Of a stretch of 32,000 nt of DNA, positions 27,807 to 30,606 are shown piece by piece; the first letter of the stretch is position 1; every line of letters starts with the position of its first letter. Source of the stretch: Mycolicibacterium smegmatis (GTDB lineage Bacteria; Actinomycetota; Actinomycetes; Mycobacteriales; Mycobacteriaceae). A program made the position numbers and the translations under genes. Below the pieces are notes generated by a model that worked only from the letters and a program-made list of their open reading frames with translations, did no database searches and was not told where the DNA came from. Location of the stretch: positions 3,450,001 to 3,482,000 of the forward strand of contig NZ_LN831039.1 in assembly GCF_001457595.1 (NCBI RefSeq), read 5' to 3'.

Positions 27807-28289
27807 TCAACCGCGCATGTTCGCGAAGGGAAGTCGTCCGTGGTGCGCGCGGAAGGCGGCAAGCATCTGGGTCTCCAGGGCGGCGGCCTCGGCGTCGGGC
27901 GTGACGCGCCATCCGACAAGCAGGGTGTCGTGGTCGGCGAGTTGCCAGATGCGTCTGCCGCCGGAGTGTCCGACAGGTTGACCCGCTCCGAATCTGCGGA
28001 ACTCATCGAGGCGTTTGCGTAGGTGGCGCTTGCCGCCGGTGCCGGCGTTTGCCTTGCCGATGTAGACAACTCGTTCACCGGGCACCCACATCCTGTCTAG
28101 TTCGGCGACGGTAACCGTAGGGTCTTTGCCTTTGAAGTGTGCGGCGGGCGACTGGGCGAGGAACCGTGGCGACTCGTCGGAGGGGCGCACGATGACATAC
28201 ACCCCTGGATGCACGGGGACGTCCGCAGTGGGCAGGGCGGCGAAGGGAACCCAGCCGCCGAAGCCGCTGAGGTCAACGGCGCCGGTCAT
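27807..28289 (-). CDS. GIY-YIG-like small nuclease-fold protein (160 aa)
   Basis: The motif order is PGVYVIV (GIY), VVYIGKA (YIG), LRKRLDEF (Arg), HSGGRRIWQL, ALETQMLAAF (Glu), LPFAN (Asn). The ATG overlaps the upstream gene's stop (ATGA, 28286-28289). Confidence 0.6.
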   Translation of the reverse strand: MTGAVDLSGFGGWVPFAALPTADVPVHPGVYVIVRPSDESPRFLAQSPAAHFKGKDPTVTVAELDRMWVPGERVVYIGKANAGTGGKRHLRKRLDEFRRFGAGQPVGHSGGRRIWQLADHDTLLVGWRVTPDAEAAALETQMLAAFRAHHGRLPFANMRG

Positions 28290-28677
28290 GTTGAGGTGCC
28301 GTTGCGGTCGTTGAACCCGTCGATGCAGCCTTTCTCGACCTGCCGCATTCGTGTTTGGTATTTGTTCTCACCGGGGTCTACGGCGGTGAGGGTCCGCCAG
28401 CGGCAGGCGGTCTCGGCGTCGGTGTAGACGACCGATTTCTTGGTGTTGTAGCCGATGTCGTAGCCCTTTTGATACCACTTGTTGTGGGTGTTGGTGTCGC
28501 CGAGCAGGTATGAACCGATTCCGACGACGGCGACGATGCCGGTGACGGCCAGCGCGATTCGTCGGACTCTACGTCGGGGACGTGGGGCCGCGGGGGCGGT
28601 GTAGCCGCTCCAGGCCGGCGCGGGCCAGCCGGGGGTGCCAGCGGCATAGGGGTTAGACATCCCAGGTGCGTAAGTTG

Positions 28678-29889
28678 TCAAGCGGCGGCAGGTGTGCGGT
28701 GTGCCCAGGCTTTGTGTTCGTCGTAGCGGGTCCGGTGGCGTAGGCAACCGTGCAGGATGCCGACGAGGCGGTTGCCCAGAGCCCGCAGTGCTTGGTGATG
28801 GAGGTCGCCTTCAGCGCGGCGATGGTCGTAGAACTGTCGAGCTCCGGGACTTCGGGTTAGCGCGCAGAAGGCCCACTGGTCGATCGCGTCGTAGAGCCGA
28901 CGGTTGCGGATGTGGCGGGCCAGTACGGCGCGCTTCCTGCCGGACGCAATGGTCAATGGCGAGGTTCCGGCGTAGTTTTTGCGACACTTGGCGTTGGTGT
29001 ATCGGTTCGGGTCGTCCCCGAACTCACCGAGCACCCGGGCGCCGAGGATGACACCAAGTCCTGGCAGGGAGCGGTAGATGTCGGCGTCCGGGTGCGTCTC
29101 AAAATGCGCGGCCAGTTCGTTCTCCAGGTCGTCGATCTGACGACTCAACTCGACGACGAGCCCGACGGTGGCCCGCGTTGTCGCTGCGAACGCCGCGGTG
29201 ACCGCAGCCGGTGCTGCGAGTTGTTCGGATCGTAGTGCGGCCTGGATCTCCTGGGCTCGGATGTCGATGTTGCGTTGGCGCCCAGCAGCTTTGAGTGCGG
29301 AGCGGATCTTGGCCAGGCTCAGGCTGGATGCTTGTCGGGGGTCGGGTGCATGTCCGAGGATCGCCAACGCGTCGCGGTCGGACAGATCGTCGAAGGCCTC
29401 CAGCGCCGCGGGGTAGTACTCGCGTAGTGCCGAGCGCAGTGCGTTGGTGTGCCGGTTGCGGGTCCAGATCAGATTCTGATGCGCCCGCGCGAGGACCTTG
29501 ACCGCTTCGGCGTCGGGTGTGTCGCCGGCGATCAGACGGTGGTTGTGTCGGTCGGTGCGCACTAGATCGGCCAACAGCTTGGCGTCGGCGGCATCGGACT
29601 TGGCTCCCGACACCGCGTGGCGGTCGCGATAGCGGGCCACAGCCAGCGGATTGACCGCGTACACCTGATAACCGGCGCCGGTCAGTGCCTCCACCCACAG
29701 TCCGCGGTCGGTTTCGATTCCGACGGCGACCTGAGCGGGGTCATCGGCGTGGGCCGCGATGAGATCGTGCAGTAGTCGAATTCCGGCCAGCCCCTCGGGC
29801 AGCCGCCGTGAGGCCAGCCTGTCGCCGGCCTCGTTCATCAGGTACAGGTCGTGGTGGTCTTCTGCCCAGTCGTCTCCGACGAAGAGCAT
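28678..29889 (-). CDS. IS110-family DEDD (RuvC-like) transposase/recombinase
   Basis: AAGGAGG lies 7 nt before ATG 29889. The N-terminus is MLFVGDDWAEDHHDLYLMNEAG, followed by YAVNPLAVARYR..SGAKSDAADAKLLA. The C-terminal Tnp_20-like block is LPGLGVILGARVLGEFGD..AGTSPLTIASG. Confidence 0.9.
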   Translation of the reverse strand: MLFVGDDWAEDHHDLYLMNEAGDRLASRRLPEGLAGIRLLHDLIAAHADDPAQVAVGIETDRGLWVEALTGAGYQVYAVNPLAVARYRDRHAVSGAKSDAADAKLLADLVRTDRHNHRLIAGDTPDAEAVKVLARAHQNLIWTRNRHTNALRSALREYYPAALEAFDDLSDRDALAILGHAPDPRQASSLSLAKIRSALKAAGRQRNIDIRAQEIQAALRSEQLAAPAAVTAAFAATTRATVGLVVELSRQIDDLENELAAHFETHPDADIYRSLPGLGVILGARVLGEFGDDPNRYTNAKCRKNYAGTSPLTIASGRKRAVLARHIRNRRLYDAIDQWAFCALTRSPGARQFYDHRRAEGDLHHQALRALGNRLVGILHGCLRHRTRYDEHKAWAHRTPAAA

Positions 29890-30150
29890 CGCATCGCCTC
29901 CTTGGCTCGATGTGGATGAAACCGTTCGAGCCGAAGGACATCTGGCGGCGACCTAATGGATCAGTGCTCGAACCGGCACGACATCCCATGAGCGCTGTAG
30001 ATGACCTCACCAACCGGCCGGGGCACGATCTAACCCTAGAAATCGACCATCGTTCCAGGCGGCAGGAGTGCTCACCGGCCAGCGGCTCGGTGATCAGCGT
30101 CCCCGCGCTGGACGGTTATCCGTTCGAGGCACGCCGATCAACACCCATTA
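29890..30150 (-). ncRNA. Candidate IS110 bridge-RNA-encoding left arm
   Basis: The arm is non-coding and lies 5' of the recombinase gene. A stem is possible between CCGGTTCGAGC and GCTCGAACGG. Two internal segments match the insertion junctions: a 9-nt identity to the right flank and an 8-nt complement to core plus the IS 5' end. Confidence 0.4.
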
Positions 30151-30606
30151 GGCGGGTGTGGCTGGCGGTGGTCGGTCCAGCGGTGTCCGTCCCAGTAGCG
30201 TGCTGCGCCGGGGTCGGCGGGGTCGTTGTACCAGCCGGGAGGGACGTAACCGGGAGTCATGTCTCGAAGCGTAACGTCAGTGGGCGTCGCGTTCGTCCTG
30301 CTCTAGCCTCTCTACTCACAGGTCGACGCACCCTTCGAAGCTGAGGTCGGTCGGGCTGACTCCGTAGCTTTTCATGTGGTGCTCGCCCCCTTCCTGGTAC
30401 TTGCTTTCCCGGGGTTGTTCGATCAGCAGGCCGATGCCCCTGACGGCTCATGGAAGGCCCTCGGCCCGATATCGATCCCACGCCGTACGCGCAGGTCTTC
30501 AGTTGCCGCCACCGACGTTGACCCGCAAGCCCCCATCGCTGTGCGTGGCCGATTTCGGTTGACGCGCCGATATGATCGCGGGATCGGTGTGCAGAGGGGG
30601 CTCTCG

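What the first reader, a model, noticed from the sequence alone, without database searches (positions are those of the whole stretch)
28656..30152. IS110-family element whose 5' arm contains short matches to its own insertion junctions (bridge-RNA-like guides)
The element lies in the minus orientation. In its 261-nt non-coding arm, 29980-29988 (GACATCCCA on the plus strand) is identical to 28656-28664, the 9 nt of host DNA directly abutting the inferred right junction. About 20 nt away, 29952-29959 (CCTAATGG) is the exact reverse complement of 30145-30152 (CCATTAGG). That second site is the CC core plus the first 6 nt of the IS at the left junction. The two segments flank a small hairpin (GTGC-CGGTTCGA-GCAC in the RNA sense). 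The IS110 subgroup is known to encode a structured bridge RNA in this arm, whose loops base-pair with target and donor DNA. A 9-mer hit to one specific flank within a few hundred nt is not expected by chance. If real, the guide-to-target pairing of this element can be read directly from a single insertion.
Basis: partly seen in the sequence, partly recalled or inferred. Interest (0 to 1): 0.7.

Follow-up and report, generated by a model that had tools for sequence, protein, structure and literature searches.

The report
Mycobacterial IS110 element with bridge RNA

Summary
The string matches are real and non-random, and the element is an IS110-group insertion sequence with a bridge RNA in its 260-nt 5' arm.

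Four empty-site alleles (flanks 99.9% identical) and about 67 related copies in other genomes place the boundaries. The element is 1495 bp, window 28655/57-30149/51 on the minus strand. Its core dinucleotide is CT, not CC.

The 9-mer TGGGATGTC is therefore the element's own right terminus, not host DNA. The 9-mer in the arm (29988-29980) is the left donor guide. The 8-mer (29959-29952) is the right donor guide, plus the core complement, plus one handshake base. Together with the hairpin between them, they form the donor-binding loop.

The real target-binding loop lies upstream. The left target guide is CUGCCGCCU (30065-30057). The right target guide plus handshake is GGGUUAGAU (30036-28). These read the true target CCGC-CT-AACCC.

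Across 63 and 54 non-redundant insertions, these two columns track the host flanks about 16 sd above permuted pairings. The RNA fold is a 5' stem-loop plus two stem-enclosed loops, with 28 compensated pairs. The recombinase profile hits IS621 (8wt6) at E=2e-15.

This is a new member of a known kind, of modest interest.

The parts
28655..30151 (-). Whole IS110-group element including both copies of the CT core. It measures 1495 bp counted with one CT, and 1493 bp (28657-30149) between the cores.
   Evidence: Empty-site alleles L081-L084 carry a single CT. The window flanks align to L082 1261-3109 and 3112-5766 at 99.9% identity. The ends CT|AATGGG... and ...TGGGATGT|CT are conserved in relatives.
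30150..30151 (-). Core dinucleotide CT at the left junction (LT-core-RD)
28655..28656 (-). Core dinucleotide CT at the right junction (LD-core-RT)
28678..29889 (-). Recombinase/transposase gene, 403 aa, with a DEDD (RuvC-like) domain and a Tnp domain. Invariant D7, E59, D99, D102 and S316 align with the IS621 active-site residues.
   Evidence: Pfam PF01548 at 1.2e-34 and PF02371 at 2.2e-10. Invariant columns are listed. The profile hits IS621 8wt6 at E=2.4e-15 and ISCro4 9t56 at 1.9e-14.
29936..30139 (-). Predicted bridge RNA, about 205 nt. The 5' end is inferred from the junction promoter and the 3' end from the last conserved helix.
   Evidence: Consensus structure on 64 sequences: 92.8% of cells paired against 31-46% for slid controls, and 28 pairs with compensatory changes. 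Model R1 scores 228.6 bits here and finds no second copy in the window.
30092..30139 (-). 5' stem-loop of the bridge RNA
   Evidence: Helix 1 (6 of 9 pairs have compensatory changes, e.g. GAUC/GAUC to GAAC/GUUC). Minimum-free-energy fold.
30057..30065 (-). Left target guide (LTG) CUGCCGCCU. It has the same sense as the host LT plus core. In this insertion the last 6 nt, CCGC+CU, match host CACCCGC-CT.
   Evidence: Family-wide, LT equals LTG at 286/441 positions against 132 +/- 9.4 when permuted. Per-locus listing.
30039..30056 (-). Inner hairpin of the target-binding loop
   Evidence: Helices 3-4. Pairs 108:130, 109:129 and 110:128 show 15, 12 and 20 double changes.
30028..30036 (-). Right target guide GGGUU, then core complement AG, then handshake guide AU. 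It is antisense to the right junction (G)T-CT-AACCC.
   Evidence: Family-wide, RT-RTG complementarity is 249/378 against 146 +/- 6.5 when permuted. Listing. Handshake concept from PMC11208158.
29980..29988 (-). Left donor guide (LDG) UGGGAUGUC. It equals the IS right terminus TGGGATGT plus the C of the core.
   Evidence: LDG equals LD in 40/64 loci (37+3). Most of the remaining differences are an RNA G where the top strand has A, which gives a G-T wobble with the bottom strand.
29964..29979 (-). Inner hairpin of the donor-binding loop, GUGC-loop-GCAC.
   Evidence: Helix 8: paired in 64/64 sequences, with one GC-to-AU compensatory change.
29951..29959 (-). Right donor guide CCAUU, then core complement AG, then handshake guide GU. 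It is antisense to the left junction (G)C-CT-AATGG.
   Evidence: RDG CCATTAG pairs with CTAAT in 67/72 loci, and L070 has a compensated change (CCATGAG with CTCAT). The first handshake base pairs with LT position -1 in 60/63 loci against 31 when permuted.
28657..28664 (-). Left donor half (LD), TGGGATGT: the last 8 nt of the IS.
30142..30149 (-). Right donor half (RD), AATGGGTG: the first nt of the IS
   Evidence: CTAATGGG nearly invariant
28676..28681 (-). -35 hexamer TTGACA, overlapping the stop codon. In the excised circle it would lie 18 nt upstream of TCTAAT, which is formed across the RE-core-LE joint.
   Evidence: TTGACN is present in 67/67 relatives with a 17-18 nt spacer. No sigma-70-like promoter is found in the integrated copy. 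The circle-junction promoter principle is from PMC11208160.
30152..30260 (-). 5' part of the interrupted host gene (DUF2510 protein). LT is CACCCGC at 30158-30152.
   Evidence: Reconstructed ORF. Intact allele P0001: 159 aa, 99% identical, PF10708.
28286..28654 (-). 3' part of the interrupted host gene. RT is AACCC(CT), starting at 28654.

Best explanation
The region is one intact copy of an actinobacterial IS110-group insertion sequence, 1495 bp with a CT core. It has recently inserted into a DUF2510 gene.

Its 260-nt left end encodes a canonical bridge RNA. This consists of a 5' stem-loop, a target-binding loop (LTG 30065-57; RTG plus handshake 30036-28) and a donor-binding loop (LDG 29988-80; RDG plus handshake 29959-51).

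By analogy with IS621, the mechanism would run as follows. The element excises as a circle. Joining RE-CT-LE assembles a promoter (TTGACA-18-TCTAAT) that would transcribe the RNA. The DEDD/Ser recombinase would bind the RNA. The donor loop would pair with the circle junction TGGGATGT-CT-AATGG, and the target loop with a genomic site resembling CCGC-CT-AACCC. Strand exchange at CT would then insert the element.

Shown here: the boundaries, the guide-flank covariation, the conserved fold, the homology and catalytic residues of the recombinase, and the promoter motif. Inferred: transcription, RNA-protein binding and the chemistry.
For: Boundaries: four independent empty-site alleles read CACCCGC-CT-AACCCC, with 99.9% identical flanks. 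In 64 related loci the sequence is conserved up to ...TGGGATGTCT and then diverges. CTAATGGG starts the conserved left end.

Guides: LT/LTG identity is 286/441 against 132 +/- 9.4 when permuted. RT/RTG complementarity is 249/378 against 146 +/- 6.5. The handshake base pairs with LT-1 in 60/63 loci against 31. There are 61 distinct target-guide pairs among 72 loci, while the donor guides stay constant. One RDG/RD change is compensated, and the LDG/LD differences are mostly G-T wobbles.

Structure: 43 pairs, 92.8% of cells paired against 31-46% for slid controls, and 28 pairs with double changes; 0 of 500 shuffles reach the observed values.

Protein: PF01548 + PF02371. The profile hits IS621 (8wt6) at 2.4e-15, and D7, E59, D99, D102 and S316 are invariant and aligned to the IS621 active site.

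Promoter: TTGACN with a 17-18 nt spacer is present in 67/67 relatives, and the -10 element is formed only by circle closure. No promoter is found in the integrated copy.

Point-by-point match to IS621 read from L085. In both elements the LTG and LDG abut an inner hairpin, the LDG matches through the C of the core and mismatches the T, and the handshake dinucleotides are AU and GU.
Against: There is no expression or biochemical evidence for this element. Rfam 15 has no matching family. A covariance model built from this clade does not detect the IS621 bridge RNA (best 3.4 bits), so RNA-level homology is argued from architecture, not sequence.

In this particular insertion the LTG matches only 4 nt of LT plus the core; positions -5 and -6 mismatch.

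The permutation tests ignore relatedness among the IS copies, although the host flanks come from different genomes and loci.
Confidence: 0.93

Rival explanations
1. The 9-mer in the arm is a target guide that matches host DNA abutting the right junction. The core is CC, and the arm carries one target match and one donor match side by side.
For: Exact 9-nt identity between 29980-88 and 28656-64, found only twice in the window. The sequence does sit at the right junction.
Against: Empty-site alleles lack TGGGATGT. The same 9-10 nt end the element in 64 related loci with unrelated flanks. The intact host protein is 159 aa (HPPNPY), not the 162 aa (HPPGMSNPY) that the CC model predicts. The 9-mer has the same sense as the top strand, whereas a guide for the right target half must be antisense (PMC11208160).
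Confidence: 0.02
2. The internal copies of the termini are DNA-level subterminal repeats bound by the transposase protein, as in many IS families. No guide RNA is involved.
For: The donor-loop segments are nearly invariant across the clade, so for them alone conservation cannot separate RNA pairing from protein binding.
Against: The neighbouring loop covaries with host flanks in 63 and 54 independent insertions. A protein-binding repeat cannot explain this. Helices around both loops show compensatory changes, which indicates selection at the RNA level. The LDG/LD differences are biased toward G-opposite-A, a wobble-compatible pattern. The homologous IS621 and ISCro4 enzymes were solved as RNA-guided complexes (PMC11208158).
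Confidence: 0.03
3. The matches are chance coincidences in GC-rich DNA.
For: Short 8-9-mers do recur by chance: 7 of 100 shuffles give at least 2 copies of the 9-mer somewhere in 32 kb.
Against: Both matches fall in one 40-nt stretch of the arm, at columns conserved in 64 relatives, and each faces the cognate terminus. The family-wide statistics are about 16 sd from permutation.
Confidence: 0.01

Closest known systems
IS621 (E. coli) bridge recombinase and its 177-nt bridge RNA (Durrant et al. 2024, PMC11208160; Hiraizumi et al. 2024, PMC11208158; PDB 8wt6)
   Same: - Same two-domain DEDD + Ser recombinase (profile E=2.4e-15, catalytic residues aligned).
- Same CT core.
- Long LE and short RE.
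- RNA with a 5' stem-loop, then a target loop, then a donor loop.
- The 5' guide of each loop has the same sense as the left half plus core; the 3' guide is antisense to the core plus right half.
- Guide lengths of about 5-7+2 and 4-5+2 nt.
- Handshake dinucleotides AU (target loop) and GU (donor loop), identical to those read in IS621 at L085.
- The LDG mismatches the second core base in both elements.
- A promoter is assembled at the circle junction.
   Different: - Protein similarity is detectable only with a profile; single-sequence phmmer finds nothing.
- The RNA is longer (about 205 nt against 177 nt), GC-rich, and not detectable across families with a covariance model.
- The predicted -10 hexamer TCTAAT spans LD-core-RD, whereas in IS621 (read from L085) the -10 lies inside the LE.
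- The RDG pairs contiguously (CCAUUAG) rather than discontiguously.
- The host is a high-GC actinobacterium.
- There is no experimental evidence for this element.
ISCro4 bridge recombinase (PDB 9t56)
   Same: Second solved homologue hit by the family profile (E=1.9e-14). Same family of RNA-guided IS110 recombinases.
   Different: Its RNA and ends were not compared here.
IS1111-group elements / seekRNA
   Same: Same DEDD recombinase family and the same principle of RNA-guided target choice.
   Different: According to PMC11208160, IS1111 elements carry the RNA in a long RE and have 7-17 bp subterminal inverted repeats. This element has a 21-nt RE, a 260-nt LE and no such repeats, so it belongs to the IS110 group.

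Membership tests
IS110 family, IS110 group insertion sequence | Recombinase with an N-terminal DEDD (RuvC-like) domain and a C-terminal Tnp domain | tested here: met
   PF01548 at 1.2e-34 and PF02371 at 2.2e-10
IS110 family, IS110 group insertion sequence | Catalytic D-E-D-D tetrad and nucleophilic serine conserved | tested here: met
   D7, E59, D99, D102 and S316 are invariant in 24 relatives. They align to the IS621 motifs GID, IEATG, KTDTVDA and ESG.
IS110 family, IS110 group insertion sequence | Insertion by exchange at a 2-nt core: core at both junctions, single in the empty site, no long target duplication | tested here: met
   CT at 30151-50 and 28656-55, and a single CT in L081-L084
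IS110 family, IS110 group insertion sequence | Long non-coding LE and short RE (the reverse of IS1111) | tested here: met
   LE is 260 nt (29890-30149) and RE is 21 nt (28657-28677), read directly from the sequence
Bridge RNA (IS621 type) | [quoted passage not shown] | tested here: met
   RNAalifold and pair counts on 64 sequences. All 8 helices are supported and 28 pairs have compensatory changes.
Bridge RNA (IS621 type) | First loop: the 5' side equals LT plus core (pairs with the bottom strand), and it covaries with host flanks | tested here: met
   286/441 against 132 +/- 9.4. In the window, CCGCCU matches CCGC-CT.
Bridge RNA (IS621 type) | First loop: the 3' side is antisense to the core plus RT, and it covaries with host flanks | tested here: met
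   249/378 against 146 +/- 6.5. In the window, GGGUUAG pairs with CT-AACCC.
Bridge RNA (IS621 type) | Second loop: the 5' side equals LD plus core, and the 3' side is antisense to the core plus RD (the element's own ends) | tested here: met
   LDG/LD and RDG/RD tables, with one compensated RDG/RD change
Bridge RNA (IS621 type) | Handshake guides: the base 3' of each core complement pairs with the non-cognate left half | tested here: met
   The donor-loop handshake base pairs with LT-1 in 60/63 loci against 31 when permuted. The target-loop handshake A faces LD-1 T in 58/72 loci.
Bridge RNA (IS621 type) | Promoter reconstituted across the RE-LE circle junction | tested here: met
   The sequence motif TTGACA-18-TCTAAT is conserved in 67/67 relatives and is absent from the integrated copy. 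Promoter activity was not tested.
Bridge RNA (IS621 type) | Match to a curated or published bridge-RNA covariance model | tested here: inconclusive
   No Rfam 15 hit. The published models are not available here. Model R1, built from this clade, does not find the IS621 RNA.
Bridge RNA (IS621 type) | The RNA is transcribed, binds the recombinase and is required for recombination | not testable with these tools
   Needs RNA-seq, binding assays and recombination assays

The most novel reading that the evidence does not exclude
This clade of at least 60 actinobacterial elements may be a naturally diversified bridge-recombinase toolkit that works in high-GC hosts. It spans Mycobacterium, Rhodococcus, Nocardia and Acidimicrobiia, and reaches Dehalococcoidia MAGs. 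It carries 61 different target-guide pairs on one constant donor loop.

Two regulatory features are not described for IS621. First, the -10 promoter element is built from LD-core-RD itself, which would tie RNA expression strictly to the circle. Second, there is an antisense sRNA (Rfam Ms_AS-4) across the most conserved part of the recombinase gene.
Probability: 0.3. Interest if true: 0.45.

Novelty: new member of a known kind. Interest (0 to 1): 0.3.

Why it matters
This is a worked example of reading a complete bridge-RNA code from sequence alone: target loop, donor loop, handshake bases and core. It also shows that a wrong junction call turns a donor guide into an apparent target guide.

The element and its relatives are simply annotated "IS110 family transposase" in public records. 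Their target preferences can now be predicted from 30065-57 / 30036-28 and the homologous columns. That is useful for interpreting IS-mediated gene disruption in mycobacteria and related genera. The clade is also a possible source of bridge recombinases adapted to high-GC hosts.

It does not change the known mechanism.

Tried and rejected
- Rfam 15 scan of 28400-30500 at E<=10. No bridge-RNA family was found, only Ms_AS-4 antisense to the transposase gene.
- Single-sequence phmmer against PDB found no hit. A 24-sequence profile was needed.
- Covariance model R1 (220 positions) searched against an IS621 locus with filters off. Nothing significant was found, with a best score of 3.4 bits at the wrong place. 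RNA homology to IS621 therefore cannot be shown by sequence or structure scoring.
- Megablast of the whole IS against PLSDB plasmids. Only 77-82% identical relatives turned up, annotated 'IS110 family transposase', and none was a named IS.
- Search for a second copy or other target-like sites in the window found none.
- RNAalifold on the stretch between the bridge RNA and the start codon gave no consensus structure.
- Joining the L042 flanks to test for a split tRNA gene: ARAGORN finds none.
- Rejected: the CC core. TA and AA cores are also compatible with the shared CTAA in this one copy, but relatives whose RT does not start with A (L013, L037, L058, L063, L066, L070) fix the shared dinucleotide as CT.
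Full report
**1. Observation**

The minus-strand ORF 28678-29889 (403 aa) carries the two IS110 transposase domains PF01548 and PF02371. GACATCCCA occurs only at 28656-64 and 29980-88 in the window. CCTAATGG at 29952-59 is the reverse complement of 30145-52. Both strings are therefore exactly as described and are unlikely by chance. The 9-mer is expected 0.51 times in 32 kb, which by my scaling is about 0.004 times in the arm.

**2. Boundaries**

In the IS orientation, both junctions in fact share CTAA: ...CACCCGC-CT-AATGGG... and ...TGGGATGT-CT-AACCCC....

A scan of species-representative genomes with the transposase returned 80 loci with 60-90% identical proteins. In 64 of them the sequence after the stop codon is conserved up to ...TGGGATGTCT and only then diverges into unrelated flanks such as AACT, AGCC, GGAG, TTCC, CAAC and CTTA. 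On the other side, conservation starts at CTAATGGG. Relatives whose right flank does not begin with A fix the shared dinucleotide as CT.

Removing the IS with a CT core restores a 159-aa DUF2510 ORF. A 99% identical, 159-aa protein exists (P0001). Its DNA in four assemblies reads CAGCCACACCCGC-CT-AACCCCTATGCC. The window flanks align to L082 at 99.9% identity over 1849 and 2655 nt, leaving exactly one CT between them.

The element is therefore 1495 bp (28655/57-30149/51), with a 260-nt LE and a 21-nt RE.

**3. What the two matches are**

In the published IS621 model, the 5' side of each bridge-RNA loop has the sense of the top strand of the left half plus core. The 3' side is antisense to the core plus right half (PMC11208160). 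The one or two bases after the core complement are handshake guides, which pair with the non-cognate left half after strand exchange (PMC11208158).

In RNA sense the arm reads UGGGAUGUC - GUGCCGGUUCGAGCAC - UGAU - CCAUUAG-GU.
- UGGGAUGUC equals LD (TGGGATGT) plus C. It is the left donor guide.
- CCAUUAG is antisense to CT-AATGG. It is the right donor guide plus core complement.
- The following G pairs with the last host base, C30152. It is the handshake guide.

Across relatives, LDG equals LD in 40/64 loci. Most of the remaining differences are an RNA G opposite a top-strand A, which is wobble-compatible with the bottom strand. One relative (L070) has a compensated RDG/RD change, CCATGAG with CTCAT.

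**4. The real target guides**

About 70 nt upstream in the RNA lies a second loop with the same layout: CUGCCGCCU (30065-57), then the hairpin GGAACGAUGGUCGAUUUC (30056-39), then UAGGGUUAGAUC (30038-27). CCGCCU equals host CCGC plus CT. GGGUUAG is antisense to CT-AACCC. The next base, A, faces the last base of LD. The insertion therefore reads as an 11-bp contiguous match, CCGC-CT-AACCC, with mismatches at LT -5 and -6.

Family-wide, these columns follow the host flanks:

| Comparison | Observed | Permuted pairings | Notes |
|---|---|---|---|
| LT/LTG identity | 286/441 | 132 +/- 9.4 (max 169) | signal decays from position -1 to -7 |
| RT/RTG complementarity | 249/378 | 146 +/- 6.5 | signal strong for +1 to +4 or +5 |
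| Donor-loop handshake base pairs with LT-1 | 60/63 | 31 | |

There are 61 distinct target-guide pairs among 72 loci, while the donor loop is constant.

**5. RNA structure**

An alignment of 64 non-identical arms (A1) gives a consensus with four components:
- a 5' stem-loop;
- a long helix enclosing the target loop and its inner hairpin;
- a helix enclosing the donor loop;
- the invariant GUGC/GCAC hairpin.

With the 5' stem added by hand, 92.8% of cells are paired against 31-46% when partners are slid. 28 of 43 pairs show changes on both sides, and no shuffle out of 500 reaches the observed values. The model built from the alignment (R1) scores 228.6 bits on 30151-29931 and finds no other copy in the window.

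**6. Protein**

Single-sequence search of PDB finds nothing. A profile of 24 relatives (A2) hits the IS621 transposase (8wt6, E=2.4e-15) and ISCro4 (9t56, 1.9e-14). D7, E59, D99, D102 and S316 are invariant and aligned to the IS621 active-site motifs.

**7. Expression logic (inferred)**

The RE carries TTGACA overlapping the stop codon. After circle closure, TCTAAT is formed from the last base of LD, the core and the first three bases of RD, 18 nt downstream. TTGACN with a 17-18 nt spacer is present in 67/67 relatives. The integrated copy has no sigma-70-like promoter on either strand. This matches the circle-junction promoter reported for IS621 (PMC11208160). It would place the RNA 5' end near the base of the 5' stem-loop, around 30139.

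**8. Comparison with IS621 itself**

An annotated IS621 copy (L085) shows LTG AUCGGGCCU, RTG GCGUAG-AU, LDG ACAGUAUCA and an RDG ending ...CAAG-GU. The order, the strand senses and the handshake dinucleotides (AU, GU) are the same as here. The mismatch of the LDG with the second core base is also shared. Minimum-free-energy folds of both RNAs have the same three-module topology.

However, R1 does not detect the IS621 RNA, and Rfam 15 has no family for either. Membership therefore rests on architecture and covariation, not on a model score.

**9. Verdict**

It is wrong in the key particular: the 9-mer is a donor guide matched to the IS's own end, not a target guide, and the core and right boundary are misplaced.

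The element is an ordinary, apparently active member of the bridge-recombinase class, described in 2024. It belongs to an actinobacterial clade for which I found no specific description. Public records label its relatives only as 'IS110 family transposase'.

Noticed in passing
window 28987-29068 (+); also L001, L007, L038, L047 2322-2403 (-), and L066, L079 2319-2400 (-): The Rfam family RF02464 (Ms_AS-4, 'Actinobacteria sRNA') matches at 107.5 bits on the strand antisense to the transposase gene, over its most conserved segment. It matched at the equivalent position in all six related IS copies tested. The Rfam family therefore tracks this IS110 clade and may be an antisense regulator of the recombinase.
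   Followed up: partly
window 29890-29945 (-): Between the bridge RNA and the start codon, a hairpin (UCCUUCGGCUCGA...UCGAGCCAAGGA, -20 kcal/mol) pairs CCUU with the AAGG of the Shine-Dalgarno AAGGAGG. The CCUU(G/C)GGCUCGAAC motif is conserved in relatives, but RNAalifold gave no consensus structure on my alignment.
   Followed up: partly
window 27807-28289 (-), and L082 3477-3959: A 160-aa ORF with no Pfam hit on record overlaps the stop of the interrupted DUF2510 gene by 4 nt, so the two look like an operon. The IS insertion probably also affects expression of this ORF.
   Followed up: no
L045 1152-1225; L001 420-915; L042 ~1100-1235: Some relatives sit next to tRNA genes. L045 lies 15 nt from a tRNA-Thr, and L001 lies about 320 nt downstream of a cluster of four tRNAs. 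The L042 left flank reads like the T-arm and anticodon region of a tRNA, but the rejoined flanks are not called as a tRNA.
   Followed up: partly
L010 and L015 (arms): These two relatives keep the donor loop and the transposase gene, but the 5' half of the arm (5' stem-loop and LTG; in L010 also the RTG) is replaced by unrelated sequence. They may be truncated or rearranged copies that lack a functional target loop.
   Followed up: no
L082 5902-6480: The contig carrying the empty-site allele has an IS21-type IstB gene about 2.4 kb beyond the DUF2510 gene. At that position another allele (L081) instead has an alpha/beta-hydrolase gene. The neighbourhood is variable for other mobile elements too.
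   Followed up: no
L066/L067 and L079/L080 (Dehalococcoidia MAG chromosomes), L011/L077 ('Sericytochromatia' MAG): Close relatives of this actinobacterial IS (60-85% protein identity) occur in genomes labelled as Chloroflexota and Cyanobacteria-related MAGs. This means either horizontal spread or binning contamination.
   Followed up: no
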